From a virus (taxonomy: Duplodnaviria; Heunggongvirae; Uroviricota; Caudoviricetes): 44,824 bases of DNA. A program made the position numbers and the translations under genes. Below are positions 34,026 to 40,035 of the stretch, piece after piece. Each line of letters begins with the position of its first letter. Within the stretch, counting starts at the first letter, position 1. The stretch spans positions 1 to 44,824 of IMG/VR virus record IMGVR_UViG_2778261573_000004; one strand, given 5' to 3'. The notes under the pieces were generated by a model. It ran no database searches, had not been told where the DNA came from, and worked only from the letters and a program-made list of their open reading frames with translations.

Positions 34026-34366
34026 ACCCCTACCCTCCCCCAAACCATCAATACCCTTCTCATCGCCGCGCTGTTGCGGCACTCCTGGCAGATCACGTTT
34101 GCCTCTGTACGCTGCACCAGCTTCGAATTTCCCTTCGGCATAGCCGGGATTGTTTCTGGTGCGTATTTCATGCCGTAATCGGTCAGCCGATAAAGCCGCT
34201 GTCCGTGCTTGCCTTCGAACTCGATCAGGCCGTCTGCCAGCAGCGTGCTCACCGTTCCGGATATCTTTTTGGTGTCCATGCCGATAAGCCCTGCCAGTTT
34301 GGCGTTGTTCAACCCTGGGTTGTTGCGCAGGGCTGCCAGCACCTGCTCACGGATTGTTATGTTCAT
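34022..34366 (-). CDS. Putative winged-helix DNA-binding protein
   Basis: Start at MNITIREQVLAALRNNPGLNNAKLAGLIGMDTKKISGTVSTLLADGLIEF; HTH-like; ATGA overlap with the downstream gene. Confidence 0.4.
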   Translation of the reverse strand: MNITIREQVLAALRNNPGLNNAKLAGLIGMDTKKISGTVSTLLADGLIEFEGKHGQRLYRLTDYGMKYAPETIPAMPKGNSKLVQRTEANVICQECRNSAAMRRVLMVWGRVGV

Positions 34367-34367
34367 G

Positions 34368-35057
34368 TCACACCATCCCGTTCGACTTGTTGCGGTTGTA
34401 CTTGGCCAGCAGCAGCTGGATCGGCGTCGGCCCTTGCTCGGCAGCTGGTGCGGCAATAGCCCGGCGTACCGGCGGCACTGGCTTACCCTCGGTGACGCGC
34501 CTTTCCCACATGTCCAGCAGATCGCCTGCCTCGCGTGCCAGTTCACCATGCGTTAACTGGCGCTCGGTGCTGCGGTGGCGCAATTCTACGCAAATGTGGT
34601 ACATGACCGGCTGCGACCATGGAAATTGCTCGCTGGAGATGAATTCGAACGAGCGGTTACGCCAGTCCCAGTATTCGGCGATCACCTGGTCAACGTTGAC
34701 GCCCAGCGCGCCGCCGCTCTGCTTGCACCAGGCGACGAACTGGCCCGGCGACGGCAGGAATGGGCGCTCCTGGCGGCGGGCAATGCGCATGCCGGCATCG
34801 ACCTGAGCCATGGTGTGGATCCCGTTCTCCTGAAACGCCAGCAGCCACTGACGGCGGAATTCGTTCAGGTCTTCCTGGGTGCGGAAGTTCGCCATGCTGG
34901 CCGGGAACGCGGCGCGCAGCTCGTTGAACAGCTTGTTGAATACCTGCGCCACCTGCTCGACCGGCGCGCACTCCTGGTACTGCTCTGGCAGGTTATGGGC
35001 CATGCGGCTCATCTGCTCGCGGTCGTGGTTACGCATCTGCTCTGCAAGAGATTTCAT
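34368..35057 (-). CDS. P: Replication protein P (helicase loader)
   Basis: MKSLAEQMRNHDREQMSRMAHNLPEQY and RRQERPFLPSPGQFVAWC closely match lambda P (MKNIAAQMVNFDREQMRRIANNMPEQY; RRQNRPFLPSPGQFVAWC) as I recall it. Confidence 0.9.
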   Translation of the reverse strand: MKSLAEQMRNHDREQMSRMAHNLPEQYQECAPVEQVAQVFNKLFNELRAAFPASMANFRTQEDLNEFRRQWLLAFQENGIHTMAQVDAGMRIARRQERPFLPSPGQFVAWCKQSGGALGVNVDQVIAEYWDWRNRSFEFISSEQFPWSQPVMYHICVELRHRSTERQLTHGELAREAGDLLDMWERRVTEGKPVPPVRRAIAAPAAEQGPTPIQLLLAKYNRNKSNGMV

Positions 35058-35962
35058 CGGATCACCCCATAGGCCCAGTCAGTGTTGTTGAAGTCCAGAT
35101 CTGGCTTGACAGCGCGCTGCTCACCTCCGGCGTTACGCTGCATTGTCAGCTTGTCCCACTGCTTACGCAGGCTTTCGGGACTCAGGATGTTGGTCTGCCA
35201 GAAGTGGTGTTTGCTAGCCCAGTCATACAGCGCGCAGATGTCCTGGTGCGACCGGTTGTCTATCTGGCGCATCAGGCGAACAGTGTTAGACCAGGAGGTC
35301 ATGTCCGGGGCTTTGCAGGTTGGGTTAATCAGCTTCACCCTGGAGGAAATCCACTTAGCTGTCTCGAGGTCTTCAGCAGAGCCCCACTTCGCACCGGATG
35401 GTGTGTAGACCGCAGCTTCAGGATGAGTTGATAAAAATTTCTTCAGACGTGCGTCAGAGGATTCGTCAGAATTCTCGGACGAAGATCTTTTAATACTGTT
35501 CTTGTTCTTGTATTGGGTGTCTACCGTTTTCGGGAAGGTTATTCCTGATTTCGGGAAGGATTTTCCCGTTTTCGGGAATTTTCTTCCCGTTTCCGGTTTG
35601 TCTAAAATCCATGCTGAAAGGTCAGTGTTTACACCGACGATTTTCATCATGCCCTGCTTCTGTGAAAAGATGATTTTGCGTTCTGCGAGAGACTTAAGCG
35701 CGTCCGATACATGCGTATCGCTCAGGCCCGTAAGCTCGGCAATAACCGTATTTGTCACGCGGTCCTGTTTCTTGTTCCAGCCGTAGGTAAGCCAGATCAC
35801 CGCCTCAAAACATTGCCATTCCCGGCCTGACAGTCTCAGGCGAGGCTTAAGCTGTTGGATCTCGTTAGCGACCTTGGTATACCCGTTCGACAGGTCGGCC
35901 ATACGACCTCCCGGTTGTTCGGTTTTATTTGGGAAATTGATTATTTCAGCGGTGTTTGACAT
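35054..35962 (-). CDS. O: Replication initiator protein O
   Basis: Start at MSNTAEIINF (lambda O begins MTNTAKILNF); TYGWNK motif; the gene contains the iteron array. Confidence 0.9.
   Translation of the reverse strand: MSNTAEIINFPNKTEQPGGRMADLSNGYTKVANEIQQLKPRLRLSGREWQCFEAVIWLTYGWNKKQDRVTNTVIAELTGLSDTHVSDALKSLAERKIIFSQKQGMMKIVGVNTDLSAWILDKPETGRKFPKTGKSFPKSGITFPKTVDTQYKNKNSIKRSSSENSDESSDARLKKFLSTHPEAAVYTPSGAKWGSAEDLETAKWISSRVKLINPTCKAPDMTSWSNTVRLMRQIDNRSHQDICALYDWASKHHFWQTNILSPESLRKQWDKLTMQRNAGGEQRAVKPDLDFNNTDWAYGVIR
35524..35602. repeat. ori iterons (four direct repeats of about 21 bp, core TTTCGGGAA) inside the O gene, with adjacent AT-rich segment 35481-35520
   Basis: CCGTTTTCGGGAAGGTTATTCC / TGATTTCGGGAAGGATTTTCC / CGTTTTCGGGAATTTTCTTCC / CGTTTCCGGTTTGTC; encodes the repeated FPK(T/S)G linker of O; same arrangement as ori-lambda. 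Confidence 0.75.
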
Positions 35963-36047
35963 ACTTACTCCCGTTACTTGCCGTAACACAGTGTGATAAG
36001 GGCCTTTGAAGTTACCGCTTCAAGGGCTTTTTCTTTTCTTGTGCCTC

Positions 36048-36593
36048 TCATATAACCCCCAGCATCGATGTAACCATCGTCATCAGCGGTCCTACCTGCT
36101 CCGGCATGAGGCGGAACAGCGACGCTATACCCTCGCTTACCTCTTTGAGCTTCTGATGCTCTGGAGCGTCCAGCAGCACGGCCTGTTTAGCCTCGGCACA
36201 CTCTTTCATCGCAGAGGCGATCAGCGACATCGTGTCGTTCTGCTGCGCCAGACGGTTTCGGTACTCCAGCGGCAGGACCGACATGATTGCCGGGGCCAGC
36301 TGGCGAATGTTGTTGGCGGCGTATTCGGTATCGCCATCAATCCATCGAAACACTTTCTGCATCTGGCGGTGCGAGTCAGTCGGGATATCCAGACCGGTTC
36401 CGCCGGACGCCCGCCACTCTTCCACGATCAGCGCGGCGACAAATTCACGGCTTCGGCAATCAGCTGCCCAGGCGCGAACAGCAGCGCGGATCCCATCGAT
36501 GTTTAACGCCGCGGAATCAGGCTCCCGGCGATTCTGGTAAATCATCGCCGTTGGCGAAAATTTGTTACCTTGTTGATACGCAAGTGAATGCAT
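36048..36593 (-). CDS. Regulatory protein in the CII position (possibly YdaT-like)
   Basis: 181 aa immediately downstream of the Cro-like gene and upstream of O; family assignment is tentative. Confidence 0.35.
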   Translation of the reverse strand: MHSLAYQQGNKFSPTAMIYQNRREPDSAALNIDGIRAAVRAWAADCRSREFVAALIVEEWRASGGTGLDIPTDSHRQMQKVFRWIDGDTEYAANNIRQLAPAIMSVLPLEYRNRLAQQNDTMSLIASAMKECAEAKQAVLLDAPEHQKLKEVSEGIASLFRLMPEQVGPLMTMVTSMLGVI

Positions 36594-36610
36594 TGCTTTC
36601 CCTTTCGTGG

Positions 36611-36844
36611 TTAGGCCGCAGTATCACGCGGCGATGCGAATACCAGGCTTTCTTTTAGGACCGGAGCCTGGCGGTGAAAATTCTTCGTGCCTTTCTCGAT
36701 AGCAGATGCCATTTCTGGAGATGCCCGGCGATTTCCGTAGGCGATCTGGTCCAGGTAACCTGGCGTCGTGTTAGCCAACTTTGCGAGCTGCGCCCATTCG
36801 TCGGTAGTGGCGGCCTTGCGCCAGCGGTGTAGTTCAGTGCTCAT
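36611..36844 (-). CDS. cro: Cro-like HTH transcriptional regulator
   Basis: 77 aa, HTH-like segment (WAQLAKLANTTPGYLDQIAYGNRRAS); divergent from the CI gene across the operator region. Confidence 0.6.
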   Translation of the reverse strand: MSTELHRWRKAATTDEWAQLAKLANTTPGYLDQIAYGNRRASPEMASAIEKGTKNFHRQAPVLKESLVFASPRDTAA

Positions 36845-36876
36845 TGGTGTCTCCGGGTGAGTCGTTTGATTTGGAG

Positions 36877-36942
36877 TTTAGCGTTATGCTAAATACTACG
36901 CAAGCATCATTTAGCAATTTGCACATTTATCATTTTGCTAAA
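36877..36942. promoter_or_regulatory. OR-like operator cluster between cro and cI
   Basis: Perfect palindrome TTTAGCGTTATGCTAAA at 36877-36893 and near-copy TTTATCATTTTGCTAAA at 36926-36942, plus half-site TTTAGCAATTTGCA between them. Confidence 0.55.
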
Positions 36943-36960
36943 AGCAGTAACAATGCAGGT

Positions 36961-37638
36961 ATGGAAAATAAAGAAATCAGAAAAGCCAACCTGGAAGCGC
37001 TGTACGAGAAGCGTCAGCACGAGTCTGGAATGACCAAAGCGCAGTTTGCCGAGCTCATCGAGACAAGTCCGGCTGCGCTTAGCCAGCTACTGGGACCAAA
37101 CCCTCATCGCAATATCGGCGATAAGATGGCTCGCAAAATTGAAACTGCGCTTGATCTGCCTTTTGGCTGGATGGATGTTTTACACGCCAGTGAAGAACCT
37201 TCGAACGTTGCATTTCGAGGACTGAACGAGACAAAAGGAAGTTATCCTGTAATCAGCTGGGTAAGCGCGGGGCAATGGATGGAAGCTGTAGAACCTTATC
37301 ACCGAAGAGCGATAGATCGCTGGTATGACACGACTGTTGACTGCTCAGAAGATTCATTCTGGCTGGACGTTAAAGGGGATTCTATGACCTCCCCGGCTGG
37401 ACTGAGCATACCCGAGGGAGCAGCGATACTTGTTGATCCTGAAGTCGAGCCGCGCAACGGAAAGCTGGTTGTCGCGAAGCTAGAAGGCGATAACGAAGCG
37501 ACCTTTAAGAAGCTTGTAATCGATGCCGGCAGACGCTTCCTAAAGCCCCTTAACCCCGCATATCCAATGCTAGAAATTAATGGAAACTGCAAAATCATCG
37601 GCGTTGTGGTTGATGCCAAAATACTAAACATCCCATAA
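36961..37638 (+). CDS. cI: CI-type prophage repressor (HTH plus S24 LexA-like peptidase domain)
   Basis: Start at MENKEIRKANLEAL; N-terminal HTH; C-terminal VKGDSM (Ser nucleophile) and VVAKLEG (Lys) of S24 autopeptidases. Confidence 0.9.
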   Translation: MENKEIRKANLEALYEKRQHESGMTKAQFAELIETSPAALSQLLGPNPHRNIGDKMARKIETALDLPFGWMDVLHASEEPSNVAFRGLNETKGSYPVISWVSAGQWMEAVEPYHRRAIDRWYDTTVDCSEDSFWLDVKGDSMTSPAGLSIPEGAAILVDPEVEPRNGKLVVAKLEGDNEATFKKLVIDAGRRFLKPLNPAYPMLEINGNCKIIGVVVDAKILNIP

Positions 37639-37654
37639 CCTCACGCAAAACCCC

Positions 37655-37683
37655 TCAAGCCCGCCATCGCGCGGGCTTTTTTA
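37655..37683 (+). terminator. Rho-independent terminator after cI
   Basis: AGCCCGCCATCGCGCGGGCT followed by TTTTTTA. Confidence 0.65.
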
Positions 37684-37754
37684 CGTCCCGAATTCCTTCG
37701 CTGTAAATTTTTAATCGCTTATTAATCAATACGCTAAATAAAACCATTCAACAA

Positions 37755-37796
37755 TTTAGCATTTTGCTATTGCGCATAATTTAGCATCACGCTAAA
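37755..37796. promoter_or_regulatory. OL-like operator cluster downstream of cI
   Basis: Perfect palindrome TTTAGCATCACGCTAAA at 37780-37796 and near-copy TTTAGCATTTTGCTAT at 37755-37770; same consensus as the OR sites. Confidence 0.5.
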
Positions 37797-38214
37797 TTTA
37801 CCCCATCGAAACGAAACATCGACAGCTGAGCGAAGTTAGCCAGCGGCGGACAGCAAGTCGCCTGCTTTTTAACAACATGCAGATTTACAGCGTCAATGAC
37901 CTGTTAAGACCCCTACACGTAAACGTGCTGTATCACTGGGTGCGATCCGGTCGGTGAGAGAGTATCCCCGCGCGAGAGCGAGAACGGCGTGAGAACGGGC
38001 AACACTGGCAGGGAGTTGGCGCTGACCAATACAGGGAATGTTATGGGATGTGGTGAAGGGTTCATGGACGGGAATATGTCGCACGTAAAGCGGCGAGGCC
38101 CGAGGAGCTATTGCCGAAGATAAGTAGGCCGAATCGGGTCGAAATGGGTCTCCCACCTACCACATCGCCAAAGCATTTCTCCCGCATCAGCGGGTAACGA
38201 CAGAGGGTAAGGGG

Positions 38215-38511
38215 ATGATCGACGACATCAAGCGCATCGACTCAATGATAAATGCGCTTCGCAATATGAAACAGGACATCAAGCGTCAGCAGAAACTAAG
38301 TGAAATAAACAGTTTAGACCTGTCGCCGAAGCAAGCTCAAAAGCGCAATGCCGATGCTGACTGGATTGCGATGGAACAGATTAAGCGTCGGCATGAGCTG
38401 CACGCTCTGTCTGTTGAGCTTGGGTTCGCTGAGCGCCGGGAAAGTTATGCTCCATTTGAATTAACTGACGGGTGGCACCGATTCGACCACAAGCCGCGCG
38501 AACCTCAATAG
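38215..38511 (+). CDS. First early-left ORF, basic protein of unknown function (N-like position)
   Basis: 98 aa; RBS GGGTAAGGGG before ATG 38215; lies after a 400-nt untranslated leader from the OL region. Confidence 0.45.
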   Translation: MIDDIKRIDSMINALRNMKQDIKRQQKLSEINSLDLSPKQAQKRNADADWIAMEQIKRRHELHALSVELGFAERRESYAPFELTDGWHRFDHKPREPQ

Positions 38512-38667
38512 CCGCCTAACCAGCGGCTTTTTCATACCTGGAGTCATTTACGAGTGGCTCAAGTTATGACAACCGGCGGCCATCCACCGCCCATTGAAAC
38601 ACTGAATAAATGCGTTGAAGTCTTGTATTAACCGTTCCGTTCGCCGCGATAAGGCCAAGAGGAAATC

Positions 38668-38796
38668 ATGGTAAACCAGCAGCAGATCAGAGAGGCCCAA
38701 CGGCTCGCGTCGTTCGCGGTGCTCCATCGCAATGCTCCGGCGTGGGAAGAAGCAAAACGCCTTTACGCCGTCGCCATCGGGAGGACTCTTCACTGA
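38668..38796 (+). CDS. Small ORF (42 aa), translationally coupled to the next gene
   Basis: RBS AAGAGGAAA before ATG 38668; stop overlaps the next ATG (TGATG). Confidence 0.3.
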   Translation: MVNQQQIREAQRLASFAVLHRNAPAWEEAKRLYAVAIGRTLH

Positions 38797-38993
38797 TGGA
38801 AACTTTATTCGCACTCGTCCTGACCGTGGCAATGACCAACGGTGATTATCAGGATGTCATTCTCGGCGTTTACGACAGCCAGCAGGAATGCAGCCTGGCA
38901 GCTACAGAGCAGAAAGTGTCAGCTGAGTGCTGGCCGGTAGAAAGCATCATCCGCAACGGCGAGTTCCCGGCGAAATCCATCGCGCAGCAGTAA
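38796..38993 (+). CDS. Small protein with hydrophobic N-terminus (65 aa)
   Basis: METLFALVLTVAMTNGDYQ...; start inferred from coupling with the upstream ORF. Confidence 0.35.
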   Translation: METLFALVLTVAMTNGDYQDVILGVYDSQQECSLAATEQKVSAECWPVESIIRNGEFPAKSIAQQ

Positions 38994-39063
38994 CCACCCT
39001 ATTCAACCGATCGGCCTGGCATTACGCGGGCGGGATCTGCACATCCAAATTTCAGGAGAAACC

Positions 39064-40035
39064 ATGAGCGAAGTAACGGACTTAACTGTCATCGAAATCA
39101 AGCCGGAACAGGCCCCAGTGCTTTACGTAGCGGGCGGCCTTGACGCGTACCTTGAGCAAATCCGCCAGGCTGTAAACGAAGTGCCGGACCTGTCCACGAA
39201 GAAAGGCCGTGACCGTGTTGCCTCTCTGGCAGCGCAGGTGTCCCGCAGCAAGACGGCAATCGAAAAGCCGGGCCGTGAGTACCTGAAGCGCCTGAAAGAG
39301 GCTGTGCGTCCGGCTGAGGCCGAAATTAAGCGATTCGTTGATGCCTGCGACGAGCTGCGCGATGCGACCCGCCGCCCACTCACCGAATGGGAAGCCGAGC
39401 AGGAACGCATTAAGGCTGAAGAAGCCATGAACGCGATGCACGCCGAAGCGCTGGAGATGAACATCAGGTTCGATCAGGAGCTGGCTGCCAAGTTCGAAGC
39501 GGACCACGAAATGGCTCTACTGATGAACAAGGATTTTGACCGTGACCGCGAAGAGCAGCGCCGTCTGGCGGAACAGGCTCAGCGTGAACGTGATGAGCGG
39601 CTGAAACAGGAAGCGGCAGAACAAGCCCGCCGCGATGCCGAAGCGAAGCACAAAGCGGAGATTGAAGCCGCAGCGCGCCGTGAAGCCGAAGAGAAAGCCC
39701 GCGCTGAACTGGCGGAGCGCCAGCGCGTCGAAGCGGAACAGCGTGCAGCTCGCGAGAAGCAGGAAGCGGAAGCCCGGGCGGAACGCGAAAAAGCCGCGGC
39801 GGTTGAAGCCGAGCGCCTGAAGGCCAAACAGGCCGAAGATGCCCGCCTGGCCGAAGAGAAGCGCCTCGCCGATGAGCAGGCAAAGCGTGAAGCTGACGTT
39901 AAGCACCGCAAGACGGTCGGCACCAACATCGTTAACGCGCTCACCAGCCAAACCAGCTTAACCCGCGAGCAGGCTATCGAAGTGCTTACCGCTCTGAAAG
40001 ATGACCTGATCCCCTGCGCGAAAATTCATTACTGA
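39064..40035 (+). CDS. Charged coiled-coil protein with Glu/Arg/Ala-rich low-complexity core
   Basis: 323 aa; RBS GGAGAA before ATG 39064; the central region 39480-39900 is strongly biased (EAERLKAKQAEDARLAEEKR), producing open frames in all six frames. Confidence 0.55.
   Translation: MSEVTDLTVIEIKPEQAPVLYVAGGLDAYLEQIRQAVNEVPDLSTKKGRDRVASLAAQVSRSKTAIEKPGREYLKRLKEAVRPAEAEIKRFVDACDELRDATRRPLTEWEAEQERIKAEEAMNAMHAEALEMNIRFDQELAAKFEADHEMALLMNKDFDRDREEQRRLAEQAQRERDERLKQEAAEQARRDAEAKHKAEIEAAARREAEEKARAELAERQRVEAEQRAAREKQEAEARAEREKAAAVEAERLKAKQAEDARLAEEKRLADEQAKREADVKHRKTVGTNIVNALTSQTSLTREQAIEVLTALKDDLIPCAKIHY

What the first reader, a model, noticed from the sequence alone, without database searches (positions are those of the whole stretch)
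36845..37810. Immunity region with the same operator palindrome on both sides of cI
Seen in sequence: perfect 17-bp palindromes TTTAGC-N5-GCTAAA at 36877-36893 (between cro and cI) and 37780-37796 (downstream of cI), each accompanied by near-copies. This mirrors lambda OR/OL and defines the immunity specificity of this phage. The consensus itself is worth recording because it predicts which heteroimmune phages would be repressed.
Basis: partly seen in the sequence, partly recalled or inferred. Interest (0 to 1): 0.4.

Follow-up and report, generated by a model that had tools for sequence, protein, structure and literature searches.

The report
Operators of a lambdoid immunity switch
The repeated TTTAGC-N5-GCTAAA sites are real and are very probably the repressor/Cro operators on both sides of the cI gene of a phi80-like E. 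coli prophage, which makes this an ordinary lambda-style genetic switch whose DNA specificity has not been described before.

Summary
TTTAGC-N5-GCTAAA occurs with perfect arms at 36877-36893 and 37780-37796 (0.01 expected by chance). Four degenerate copies lie beside them, giving three sites between cro and cI (OR) and three after the cI terminator (OL).

- cI (36961-37638) is an HTH plus S24 autocleaving repressor. It aligns over its full length with lambda cI.
- cro (36844-36611) is divergent.
- OR1 and OL1 each sit between a -35 TTGCGY and a -10 TAAAYT. The OL1 -10 aligns with the annotated pL -10 of phi80, and 99.7% identity to phi80 (nutL, N) begins there.
- In 160 loci chosen by protein homology, every repressor with this N-terminal domain (57-100% identity; 113/113) has the site 84 nt before its ATG. 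Of 47 repressors with the same C-terminal domain but another N-terminal domain, none do.
- Arms, promoter hexamers and spacing are conserved while the centres and the DNA between sites drift.

The cassette (36620-37797) replaces phi80's immunity region exactly. It is rare in E. coli (27 of 5426 genomes) but also found in Klebsiella, Enterobacter, Pantoea, Atlantibacter and Biostraticola. I found no characterised phage or paper with this operator.

Verdict: a new member of a known kind, of modest interest. Binding has not been tested.

The parts
36611..36844 (-). cro: 77-aa HTH protein, first gene of the pR operon
   Evidence: ORF. Pfam HTH_3 E 0.0026. PHROG 35 'transcriptional repressor'. Residues G29-G37 (GYLDQIAYG) are invariant in lineages down to 57% identity. 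GGAG lies 6 nt before the ATG.
36875..36903 (-). Predicted pR: -35 TTGCGT (36903..36898), 17-nt spacer, -10 TAAACT (36880..36875)
   Evidence: Read. It mirrors pL (TTGCGC-17-TAAATT). The TTG of the -35 and the T6 of the -10, both outside the operator arms, are invariant in 16 lineages. The strict consensus scan did not report it, because it matches only 7 of 12 positions.
36877..36893 (.). OR1: TTTAGC GTTAT GCTAAA, perfect arms, inside the pR core (centre about -17)
   Evidence: Present 84 nt before the cI ATG in 80/80 and 33/33 protein-selected loci.
36910..36926 (.). OR2: TTTAGC AATTT GCACAT, good left arm and poor right arm; centre at -43 from the predicted pRM start
   Evidence: 3 mismatches. 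ATTTAGC is invariant and TGCAyAT largely conserved in 16 lineages, although neither was used to select them.
36926..36942 (.). OR3: TTTATC ATTTT GCTAAA (1 mismatch); overlaps OR2 by 1 bp and covers the pRM -35 and spacer
   Evidence: Found at -35 from the cI ATG in all 113 protein-selected loci of this N-terminal-domain family.
36926..36954 (+). Predicted pRM: weak -35 TTTATC (36926-31), 17-nt spacer, -10 AACAAT (36949-54). The predicted start is the A of the cI ATG, giving a leaderless mRNA.
   Evidence: Read. Across 16 lineages only A2 and T6 of the hexamer are invariant, with A4, A5 and the G at -14 conserved in at least 80%. The ATG follows 7 nt after the hexamer in every lineage. P22's annotated PRM start lies 4 nt before c2.
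36961..37638 (+). cI: 225-aa repressor with an HTH N-terminal domain and an S24 autocleavage domain (A103-G104, S141, K183/K184)
   Evidence: Pfam Peptidase_S24 1.9e-29 and HTH_3 8.8e-5. Lambda cI 3bdn E 5e-32 over residues 10-218. 63% identical to P22 C2, almost all of it in the C-terminal domain.
37657..37684 (+). Intrinsic terminator after cI
   Evidence: 8-bp stem, 6 G-C pairs, T-run. RNA fold -16 kcal/mol, z -3.2.
37722..37738 (.). OL3: TTAATC AATAC GCTAAA (2 mismatches)
   Evidence: (T/A)AATCA-N4-GCTAAA is conserved 33 bp from OL2 in 23 lineages.
37755..37771 (.). OL2: TTTAGC ATTTT GCTATT (2 mismatches); its right arm runs into the pL -35
   Evidence: ATTTAGCATTTTGCTATTG is nearly invariant in 23 lineages, although it was not used to select them.
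37770..37798 (+). Predicted pL: -35 TTGCGC (37770-75), 17-nt spacer, -10 TAAATT (37793-98)
   Evidence: The -10 aligns base for base with the annotated pL -10 of phi80. TTG of the -35 and the TT after OL1 are invariant in 23 lineages.
37780..37796 (.). OL1: TTTAGC ATCAC GCTAAA, perfect arms, inside the pL core (centre about -17)
   Evidence: In promoter orientation it is 16/17 identical to OR1 (TTTAGCATAACGCTAAA). A perfect site lies downstream of cI in 79/80 and 29/33 protein-selected loci.
36620..37797 (.). The exchangeable immunity cassette (cro-OR-cI-terminator-OL), heterologous to phi80
   Evidence: Local blastn against phi80: 34326-36299 at 97.5%, 36571-36619 at 96%, 37798-38663 at 99.7%, and nothing in between.
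37798..38511 (+). phi80-type pL transcript: leader with nutL (boxA about 37863-37871, core about 37916-37927) and N (38215-38511, 98 aa)
   Evidence: 99.6% identical to phi80. Features mapped from the phi80 annotation by the offset 35297.

Best explanation
The six TTTAGC-N5-GCTAAA-type sites are the operators of a lambda-type lysis/lysogeny switch carried by a phi80/HK225-like prophage.

Inferred mechanism:
- In the lysogen, CI dimers read the two 6-bp arms with the helix-turn-helix of their N-terminal domain.
- The two perfect sites, OR1 and OL1, lie between the -35 and -10 of pR and pL. Bound CI therefore excludes RNA polymerase. This silences cro/cII-like/O/P on one side and N plus the recombination and integration genes on the other.
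- The weaker OR2 is centred 43 bp before the cI start codon, next to a poor -35. That is the position from which lambda CI activates PRM.
- OR3 covers the pRM -35 and spacer, so it would shut off cI at high repressor concentration or when Cro binds.
- cI mRNA made from pRM would be leaderless.
- SOS-activated RecA would trigger self-cleavage at A103-G104 by S141 and K183 or K184 (the lambda K192 equivalent), and so induce the prophage.

Shown here: the sites, their number, spacing and conservation; the domain make-up of CI and Cro; the junctions with phi80; and the co-variation of the operator with the N-terminal domain.

Inferred only: binding, the promoters and their start sites, activation from OR2, cooperativity or looping, and induction.
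For: (1) Statistics: 2 perfect sites against 0.01 expected, and 5 of the 7 matches at up to 2 mismatches fall in two stretches of 66 and 75 bp.

(2) Genes: cI has HTH_3 plus Peptidase_S24 and aligns with full-length lambda cI at E 5e-32, including the Ala-Gly cleavage site, the GDSM serine and the FKKL lysine. A small HTH cro is divergent, followed by a YdaT-type cII-like gene and an O-like gene.

(3) Promoter context: OR1 and OL1 sit in near-identical cores, TTGCGT-17-TAAACT and TTGCGC-17-TAAATT. The latter -10 aligns with phi80's annotated pL -10, and phi80 nutL and N follow at 99.6-99.7% identity.

(4) Conservation: in 16 OR and 23 OL lineages the arms, the TTG of both -35 elements, A2 and T6 of the pRM -10, and the spacings are conserved. 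The spacings are 33 and 16 bp in OR, 33 and 25 bp in OL, and 84 nt from OR1 to the ATG. The central 5 bp and the DNA between sites vary.

(5) Co-variation: among loci picked by protein homology, 80/80 (cI 82-100% identical) and 33/33 (N-terminal domain 57-61% identical) carry the site at -84, and 79/80 and 29/33 have a perfect site downstream of cI. Of 47 loci with the same C-terminal domain (80-99% identical) but another N-terminal domain, none has a site with up to 1 mismatch in the 130 bp upstream of cI.

(6) The OL sites keep the same sequence although different C-terminal domains and 0.7-2.2 kb of unrelated cargo genes separate them from the N-terminal-domain coding part in other lineages.
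Against: - There are no binding data of any kind.
- The strict sigma-70 scan found no promoter in 36550-38300, because the predicted pR and pL match only 7 of 12 consensus positions.
- OR is physically adjacent to the N-terminal-domain coding sequence and to cro. Co-inheritance alone would therefore give part of the co-variation, and it cannot separate CI binding from Cro binding.
- The first family scan selected on the operator itself. Only the protein-selected sets are unbiased, and their members are phylogenetically related.
- OR2 and OR3 overlap by 1 bp (16 bp centre to centre), unlike lambda. Simultaneous occupancy and lambda-like logic are therefore not assured.
- CI residues at the positions aligned with lambda Q44, S45 and G46 vary between lineages (P/A, A/S, A/Q/T/P) without any change in the operator arms. 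The mode of recognition is therefore unknown.
- BLASTP finds no similarity between Cro and the CI N-terminal domain, and the profile comparison is weak at 9% probability.
Confidence: 0.85

Rival explanations
1. The dyads are Cro-only sites, or sites for another phage or host regulator, and CI recognises a different, unrecognised sequence.
For: Cro's putative recognition helix (GYLDQIAYG) is strictly invariant across lineages with the same operator. In contrast, the CI positions aligned with lambda Q44, S45 and G46 vary. cro is always linked to the sites, so the co-variation does not separate the two proteins.
Against: No other repeated dyad is present in either intergenic region. The sites at pL lie on the far side of cI and its cargo genes, yet they still follow the CI N-terminal-domain family. 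In every characterised lambdoid switch, CI and Cro share operators (established knowledge: lambda, 434, P22). CI residues S36, S41, Q42 and R50-N51-x-G53-D54 are invariant. The sequence is unlike the LexA or CRP consensus sites (my knowledge).
Confidence: 0.05
2. The repeats are conserved because they are promoter sequence (AT-rich -10-like TAAA and TTTA elements) or recent common descent, not because a protein reads a dyad.
For: GCTAAAyT overlaps the predicted -10 hexamers of pR and pL. Many loci are near-identical copies of one cassette.
Against: Both arms of each dyad are conserved, including the arm distal to the -10. OL3, OR2 and OR3 are not in pR or pL cores. Across lineages whose CI and Cro have diverged to 53-60% identity, the arms are invariant while the 5 central bases and the spacers between sites change. 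The dyad disappears completely when the N-terminal domain is replaced.
Confidence: 0.03
3. The operators are real, but the switch logic differs from lambda. OR holds only two independently usable positions: OR1, and a composite 33-bp element TTTAGCAA-N17-TTGCTAAA at 36910-36942. Occupancy of OR2 and OR3 is mutually exclusive or involves a single higher-order complex, and there is no lambda-like pairwise OR1-OR2 cooperativity.
For: OR2 and OR3 share a base and lie 16 bp (about 1.5 turns) apart. Their inner arms are the degenerate ones (GCACAT and TTTATC) and their outer arms are perfect. The OR1-OR2 spacing is 33 bp, whereas OL1-OL2 is 25 bp. This geometry is invariant in all lineages.
Against: Nothing tested here bears on occupancy. 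OR2 centred at -43 and OR3 over the -35 and spacer reproduce the functional layout of lambda PRM. 33 bp is about 3 helical turns, which lambda CI cooperativity tolerates (established knowledge: Hochschild and Ptashne 1986).
Confidence: 0.15

Closest known systems
Phage lambda immunity region (cI, cro, OR1-3, OL1-3, PR, PRM, PL)
   Same: It has a divergent cI and cro. There are three 17-bp dyad sites between them and three more at pL on the other side of cI. The strongest sites lie in the pR and pL cores, and a site is centred about -43 from pRM. The cI message is predicted to be leaderless. The repressor is an HTH plus S24 protein that aligns with lambda cI over its full length. pL drives an N antiterminator.
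   Different: The operator sequence is unrelated to lambda's (TATCACCGCCAGTGGTA type, my knowledge). Site spacings are 33 and 16 bp (OR) and 25 and 33 bp (OL), against about 24 and 23 bp, and OR2 and OR3 overlap by 1 bp. OL lies only 0.9 kb from OR and there is no rexAB. The cII-position gene is of the YdaT type. The residues aligned with lambda Q44 and S45 are small and variable.
P22 C2 / phage 21 cI repressors (immC of P22, imm21)
   Same: These are the closest characterised proteins, at 63-64% identity over residues 18-225. Nearly all of the identity lies in the linker and C-terminal domain, from about residue 92. Helix 3 has a similar outline, S-x-x-A-[IL]-S-Q. The outer TTTA...TAAA of the operator is shared.
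   Different: The N-terminal domain is essentially unrelated. P22 operators are ATTTAAG-N4-CTTAAAT, read from the annotated C2 sites. None is present here, and there is no TTTAGC dyad in P22's OR or OL.
Phage phi80 immunity region
   Same: The flanks are the same at 96-99.7% identity: pL -10 onward, nutL and N on one side; the cro-cII spacer, the C-terminal part of cII, and genes 15 and 14 on the other. The layout is the same, with three CI sites in OR and three in OL.
   Different: phi80's cro, cI, gene 40A and its 19-bp operators (AATCAACA type) are replaced by the 1.18-kb cassette 36620-37797.
Klebsiella phages KO-TP1 (PQ571297) and vB_Kpn_Chronis (MN013086)
   Same: These are the only deposited phage genomes with this OR. 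Their cI proteins are 95% and 84% identical, and the same six sites are seen in KO-TP1.
   Different: The hosts and the rest of the genomes differ. The operators are not annotated. KO-TP1's cI is annotated from an ATG inside OR1. I found no functional study.

Membership tests
Lambda-type (lambdoid) immunity region | Divergently transcribed repressor (HTH plus S24) and small HTH cro gene | tested here: met
Lambda-type (lambdoid) immunity region | Several related dyad-symmetric sites in the cI-cro intergenic region (OR) | tested here: met
   Three sites at 36877, 36910 and 36926, conserved in 16 lineages.
Lambda-type (lambdoid) immunity region | A second cluster of the same sites (OL) at the leftward early promoter beyond cI | tested here: met
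   Three sites at 37722, 37755 and 37780. The -10 aligns with phi80's annotated pL -10. Conserved in 23 lineages.
Lambda-type (lambdoid) immunity region | Operators overlap the -35 and -10 elements of pR, pL and pRM | tested here: inconclusive
   The hexamers are predicted by position, by homology to phi80 pL and by their conservation pattern. The strict consensus scan found none, and no start sites have been mapped.
Lambda-type (lambdoid) immunity region | Operator sequence co-varies with the repressor's DNA-binding domain (immunity specificity) | tested here: met
   113/113 loci with this N-terminal-domain family against 0/47 with the same C-terminal domain and another N-terminal domain.
Lambda-type (lambdoid) immunity region | Repressor and Cro bind the sites and confer immunity to superinfection | not testable with these tools
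   This needs EMSA or footprinting and cross-immunity plating.
Lambda-type (lambdoid) immunity region | pL transcript carries nutL and an N-type antiterminator | tested here: met
   99.6% identical to phi80 nutL and N.
LexA/cI/UmuD S24 self-cleaving proteins | Ala-Gly cleavage site plus Ser/Lys dyad in an S24 domain | tested here: met
   Peptidase_S24 E 1.9e-29. A103-G104, S141 (GDSM) and K183/K184 (FKKL) align with lambda A111-G112, S149 and K192 (the lambda numbering is from my knowledge).
P22 / phage 21 immunity specificity | C2-type N-terminal domain and ATTTAAG-N4-CTTAAAT operators | tested here: not met
   Only the C-terminal domain is homologous. P22's operator sequences differ from those in the window.
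phi80 immunity specificity | phi80 cI and cro and the 19-bp AATCAACA-type operators | tested here: not met
   There is no similarity between 36620 and 37797, and the phi80 operators differ.

The most novel reading that the evidence does not exclude
This is one unusually broad immunity group. Repressors whose DNA-binding domains have diverged to 53-60% identity, and which carry different residues at the positions aligned with lambda's base-contacting Q44 and S45, all read identical operator arms in phages of at least six genera of Enterobacterales. If so, recognition would rest on non-canonical contacts: the invariant S36, S41, Q42, the R50-N51-x-G53-D54 loop and the MExKxxRKxNL N-terminal arm. 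The invariant 1-bp overlap of OR2 and OR3 would give a switch whose pRM activation and repression are mutually exclusive, rather than lambda-like.
Probability: 0.2. Interest if true: 0.45.

Novelty: new member of a known kind. Interest (0 to 1): 0.3.

Why it matters
The result gives a precise, testable operator consensus (TTTAGC-N5-GCTAAA) and a full regulatory map for an immunity type that no deposited or published phage study describes. It predicts homo-immunity among a set of prophages and temperate phages of Escherichia, Klebsiella, Enterobacter, Pantoea, Atlantibacter and Biostraticola. It also corrects a repressor start annotated inside the operator.

The cassette is a clean natural example of immunity-module exchange, with junctions at the pL -10 and just after the cro stop codon. 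The repressor/operator pair could serve as an orthogonal part for synthetic circuits. None of this changes how such switches are understood.

Tried and rejected
- **Strict promoter scan of 36550-38300:** no hits. The promoters therefore rest on position, phi80 homology and conservation.
- **Rfam at permissive threshold over 36000-39500:** only sub-threshold chance hits, so no known RNA element explains the region.
- **Literature search for the four 17-mers:** no paper. Papers naming vB_Kpn_Chronis or KO-TP1 are genome announcements and surveys. PDB codes 7NKV, 8C3K and 8C7K gave no paper.
- **PDB search with the CI N-terminal domain alone:** only a weak hit to an unnamed phage CI (7nkv, E 0.018). 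Cro gave only E 0.3 hits. No solved close relative is available to model DNA contacts.
- **BLASTP of Cro against the CI N-terminal domain:** nothing. hhalign reproduces the by-eye HTH register at only 9% probability, so 'similar recognition helices' remains a weak suggestion.
- **NCBIfam:** gives no specific name.
- **Considered and rejected:** P22/21 or phi80 immunity (operators differ), LexA or CRP boxes (no resemblance, my knowledge), and the upstream in-frame ATG 36886 or TTG 36844 as the cI start (that frame is closed in relatives).
- **Deliberately not run:** structure prediction and the 5.8-billion-protein search, because they would not decide binding.
Full report
**Observation**

TTTAGCGTTATGCTAAA lies at 36877-36893 and TTTAGCATCACGCTAAA at 37780-37796. 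The pattern TTTAGC-N5-GCTAAA occurs twice without mismatch, against 0.01 expected from dinucleotide-preserving shuffles.

With up to two mismatches there are 7 matches against 1.65 expected. Five of them lie in the two short non-coding stretches on either side of one gene. At three mismatches the window-wide count equals chance. The sixth copy (36910-36926, TTTAGCAATTTGCACAT) therefore rests on comparative evidence given below. Only the 6-bp arms are symmetric.

**Genes**

- The ORF from ATG 36961 to 37638 (+) encodes a 225-aa protein with Peptidase_S24 (E 1.9e-29) and HTH_3 (E 8.8e-5) domains.
- It aligns with full-length lambda cI (3bdn) at E 5e-32. The alignment includes the Ala-Gly cleavage site (A103-G104), the GDSM serine (S141) and the FKKL lysines (K183, K184).
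- Divergent from it, 36844-36611 (-) encodes a 77-aa weak HTH_3 protein (PHROG 35, 'transcriptional repressor'). It is followed by a YdaT-type 'CII-like' gene and an O-like replication gene.
- After cI comes a strong intrinsic terminator at 37657-37684, then the second site cluster.
- Next is a 410-nt leader and a 98-aa ORF that is phi80 N.

The cI start needs a comment. An in-frame ATG lies inside the first palindrome (36886), and GenBank uses its equivalent for Klebsiella phage KO-TP1. That frame runs into TAA or TAG within five codons in diverged relatives, and all relatives begin MENK/MESK at the downstream ATG.

**Anatomy of the sites**

OR holds three sites:
- OR1, 36877-93, perfect arms.
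- OR2, 36910-26, left arm perfect and right arm GCACAT.
- OR3, 36926-42, TTTATC...GCTAAA.

OL holds three sites:
- OL3, 37722-38.
- OL2, 37755-71.
- OL1, 37780-96, perfect arms.

Centre-to-centre spacings are 33 and 16 bp in OR and 33 and 25 bp in OL. Pooling the 12 half-sites gives T10 T11 T10 A11 G10 C12 out of 12.

Read in the direction of the adjacent early gene, OR1 and OL1 are 16/17 identical (TTTAGCATAACGCTAAA and TTTAGCATCACGCTAAA). They sit in near-identical cores, TTGCGT-17 nt-TAAACT toward cro and TTGCGC-17 nt-TAAATT toward N.

The simple consensus scan did not call these promoters, because they match only 7 of 12 positions. However, the TAAATT aligns base for base with the -10 annotated for pL in phi80 (TTTAAT, followed by the same ...CCATCGAAACGAAACATCG).

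Upstream of cI, a hexamer AACAAT (36949-54) ends 6 nt before the ATG. A weak -35 TTTATC, which is the left arm of OR3, lies 17 nt upstream of it. If this is pRM, three things follow:
- The cI message is leaderless, as for lambda PRM (established knowledge). P22's annotated PRM start is 4 nt before c2.
- OR2 is centred at -43, the position from which lambda CI activates PRM (established knowledge).
- OR3 covers the -35 and spacer.

**Mosaic context**

The window is a phi80/HK225-like prophage: 36% of its last 24.8 kb matches phi80 at 96%. A local comparison with phi80 gives 97.5% identity over 34326-36299 (the C-terminal part of cII, and genes 15 and 14), 96% over 36571-36619 (the cro-cII spacer) and 99.7% over 37798-38663 (pL -10, nutL, N, tL1). 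There is no similarity in between.

The segment 36620-37797 (cro, OR, cI, terminator, OL) is therefore a heterologous immunity cassette. It is set precisely between the end of cro and the -10 of pL. phi80's own operators are of a different type, AATCAACA.

**Relatives selected by the operator**

A scan of IMG/VR for TTTAGCATNACGCTAAA returned at least 119 loci. Ninety-four of them encode both a cro and a cI homologue, and the typical pair of hits lies 903 bp apart, as in the window.

In these loci the CI N-terminal domain ranges from 53 to 100% identity and Cro from 57 to 100%. OR2, OR3, OL2 and OL3 were not part of the search pattern, yet they are retained with the same spacing while the DNA between them diverges. 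This set is biased for OR1 and OL1, so two unbiased sets were made.

**Relatives selected by protein**

- Eighty loci were chosen only by homology to the window's CI (82-100% identity). All have perfect arms 84 nt before the ATG and the OR3-type site at -35. Seventy-nine have a perfect site downstream of cI, and the one exception has only 380 bp of downstream sequence. The central 5 bp vary (OL1: ATCAC, ATAAC, GACAC, AACAC, ATCGC, ATTGC; OR1: GTTAT, TTTAT, ATTAT) while the arms never do.
- Eighty loci were chosen by homology to a diverged CI (L008 type). They split cleanly into two groups. The 33 whose N-terminal domain belongs to this family (57-61% identical to the window's) all have the -84 site (31 perfect, 2 with one mismatch) and the -35 site, and 29 have a perfect site downstream. 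The 47 that share the same C-terminal domain (80-99% identical) but carry lambda-like, 434-like or other N-terminal domains have no site with up to one mismatch in the 130 bp upstream of cI and no perfect site in the up to 3.4 kb scanned downstream.

The operator therefore follows the DNA-binding domain and not the oligomerisation/cleavage domain. OL follows it even across swapped C-terminal domains and 0.7-2.2 kb of unrelated cargo genes. Members of each set are related by descent and OR is adjacent to the N-terminal-domain coding sequence, so these counts are not independent trials. The OL result is the more telling one.

**Conservation profile**

Sixteen OR lineages less than 90% identical were compared. 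The invariant columns are OR1, the CAA that is the TTG of the pR -35, the A that is T6 of the pR -10, ATTTAGC of OR2, ATTTATC and TGCTAAA of OR3, and A2 and T6 of the pRM -10. The hexamer's A4 and A5 and the G at -14 are conserved in at least 80% of lineages. The spacers and the 6 nt before the ATG are free.

Twenty-three OL lineages were compared in the same way. ATTTAGCATTTTGCTATTG (OL2 plus the TTG of the pL -35), AATCA...GCTAAA (OL3) and the TT completing the pL -10 are conserved, and the spacers are free. This is the pattern expected of operators interleaved with promoters.

**Proteins**

Invariant CI residues across nine diverse N-terminal domains include M1, E2, K4, R7, N10, L11, K26, A27, F29, A30, S36, S41, Q42, R50, N51, G53, D54 and A57-E61.

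In the HMMER alignment to lambda cI, P37, A38 and A39 fall opposite Q44, S45 and G46, and S41 and Q42 fall opposite G48 and A49. Q44 and S45 are lambda's main base-contacting residues (my knowledge). Here those positions are small and vary between lineages (P/A, A/S, A/Q/T/P) without any operator change. How the arms are read is therefore open.

Cro's GYLDQIAYG is invariant. A resemblance between CI E-T-S-P-A-A-L-S-Q-L and Cro N-T-T-P-G-Y-L-D-Q-I is visible by eye. hhalign reproduces the register, but only at 9% probability, and BLASTP sees nothing.

The closest characterised proteins are P22 C2 and phage 21 cI (63-64% identity). The identity is almost entirely in the C-terminal domain, and P22's operators, ATTTAAG-N4-CTTAAAT, are different.

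**Distribution and prior knowledge**

- The cassette is in 27 of 5426 complete E. coli genomes, always chromosomal.
- Among one-genome-per-species representatives, the exact OR layout occurs in two Pantoea, three Enterobacter, Atlantibacter hermannii and Biostraticola tofi. Each has a MENK... cI at the expected distance and a second perfect site downstream.
- Among 50,697 deposited phage genomes, only Klebsiella phages KO-TP1 and vB_Kpn_Chronis share the OR.
- No paper in the searchable library contains the 17-mers. The papers naming those phages are genome announcements or surveys.

**Verdict**

This is a lambda-type immunity region with tripartite OR and OL, whose operator consensus is TTTAGC-N5-GCTAAA.

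It is a new, uncharacterised specificity within a thoroughly known kind of system, inserted as a cassette into a phi80-like prophage. Binding, start sites, activation from OR2 and cross-immunity are inferred and not shown. Two features are mildly unusual: the invariant 1-bp overlap of OR2 and OR3, and the constancy of the operator across repressors that differ at canonical recognition positions. Both are worth a bench test, but neither makes this more than a modestly interesting finding.

Noticed in passing
window 36886 (ATG inside OR1); L002 2317-3069 (KO-TP1 cI as deposited): GenBank annotates KO-TP1's repressor from the ATG that lies inside the OR1 palindrome, adding 25 aa. The window has the same in-frame ATG, and also a 264-aa TTG ORF from 36844. 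In diverged relatives that frame hits TAA or TAG within five codons, so the real start is the MENK ATG (36961).
   Followed up: yes
L008, L017, L028, L036, L055, L068, L079, L081, L085, L101, L104 (between cI and OL): In other lineages of this immunity group, 0.7-2.2 kb of unrelated cargo genes sit between cI and OL. They include lipoprotein-like proteins, two-gene cassettes, and single 294-aa and 351-aa ORFs. This is the slot occupied by rexAB in lambda and 40A in phi80. The window has no cargo there. Their functions were not examined.
   Followed up: partly
window 37805-38214: A leader of about 410 nt with no ORF lies between pL and N. It is 99.6% identical to phi80. The stretch 37863-38179 is 95% identical to many Stx2a-converting phages, in which nothing is annotated. 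A hairpin plus T-run at 37845-37871 overlaps the phi80-annotated nutL boxA.
   Followed up: no
window 37705-37715: An A/T block (AAATTTTTAAT; AAAAAT(A/T)AAT in relatives) just upstream of OL3 is conserved across 23 OL lineages, although it is not an operator copy. Its function is unknown.
   Followed up: no
window 36620 and 37797/37798: The junctions of the immunity cassette with phi80-type DNA fall immediately after the cro stop codon and exactly at the pL -10. The N-terminal half of the cII-like gene (36300-36570) is also diverged from phi80.
   Followed up: yes
E. coli complete genomes: One of the 27 E. coli genomes that carry the cassette holds it at two places, which may mean two homo-immune prophages in one cell. 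The genome was not identified or examined.
   Followed up: no
L241-L289: One C-terminal domain type (80-99% identical) is combined with at least five unrelated N-terminal HTH domains in IMG/VR contigs. This shows frequent domain shuffling at the repressor linker.
   Followed up: partly
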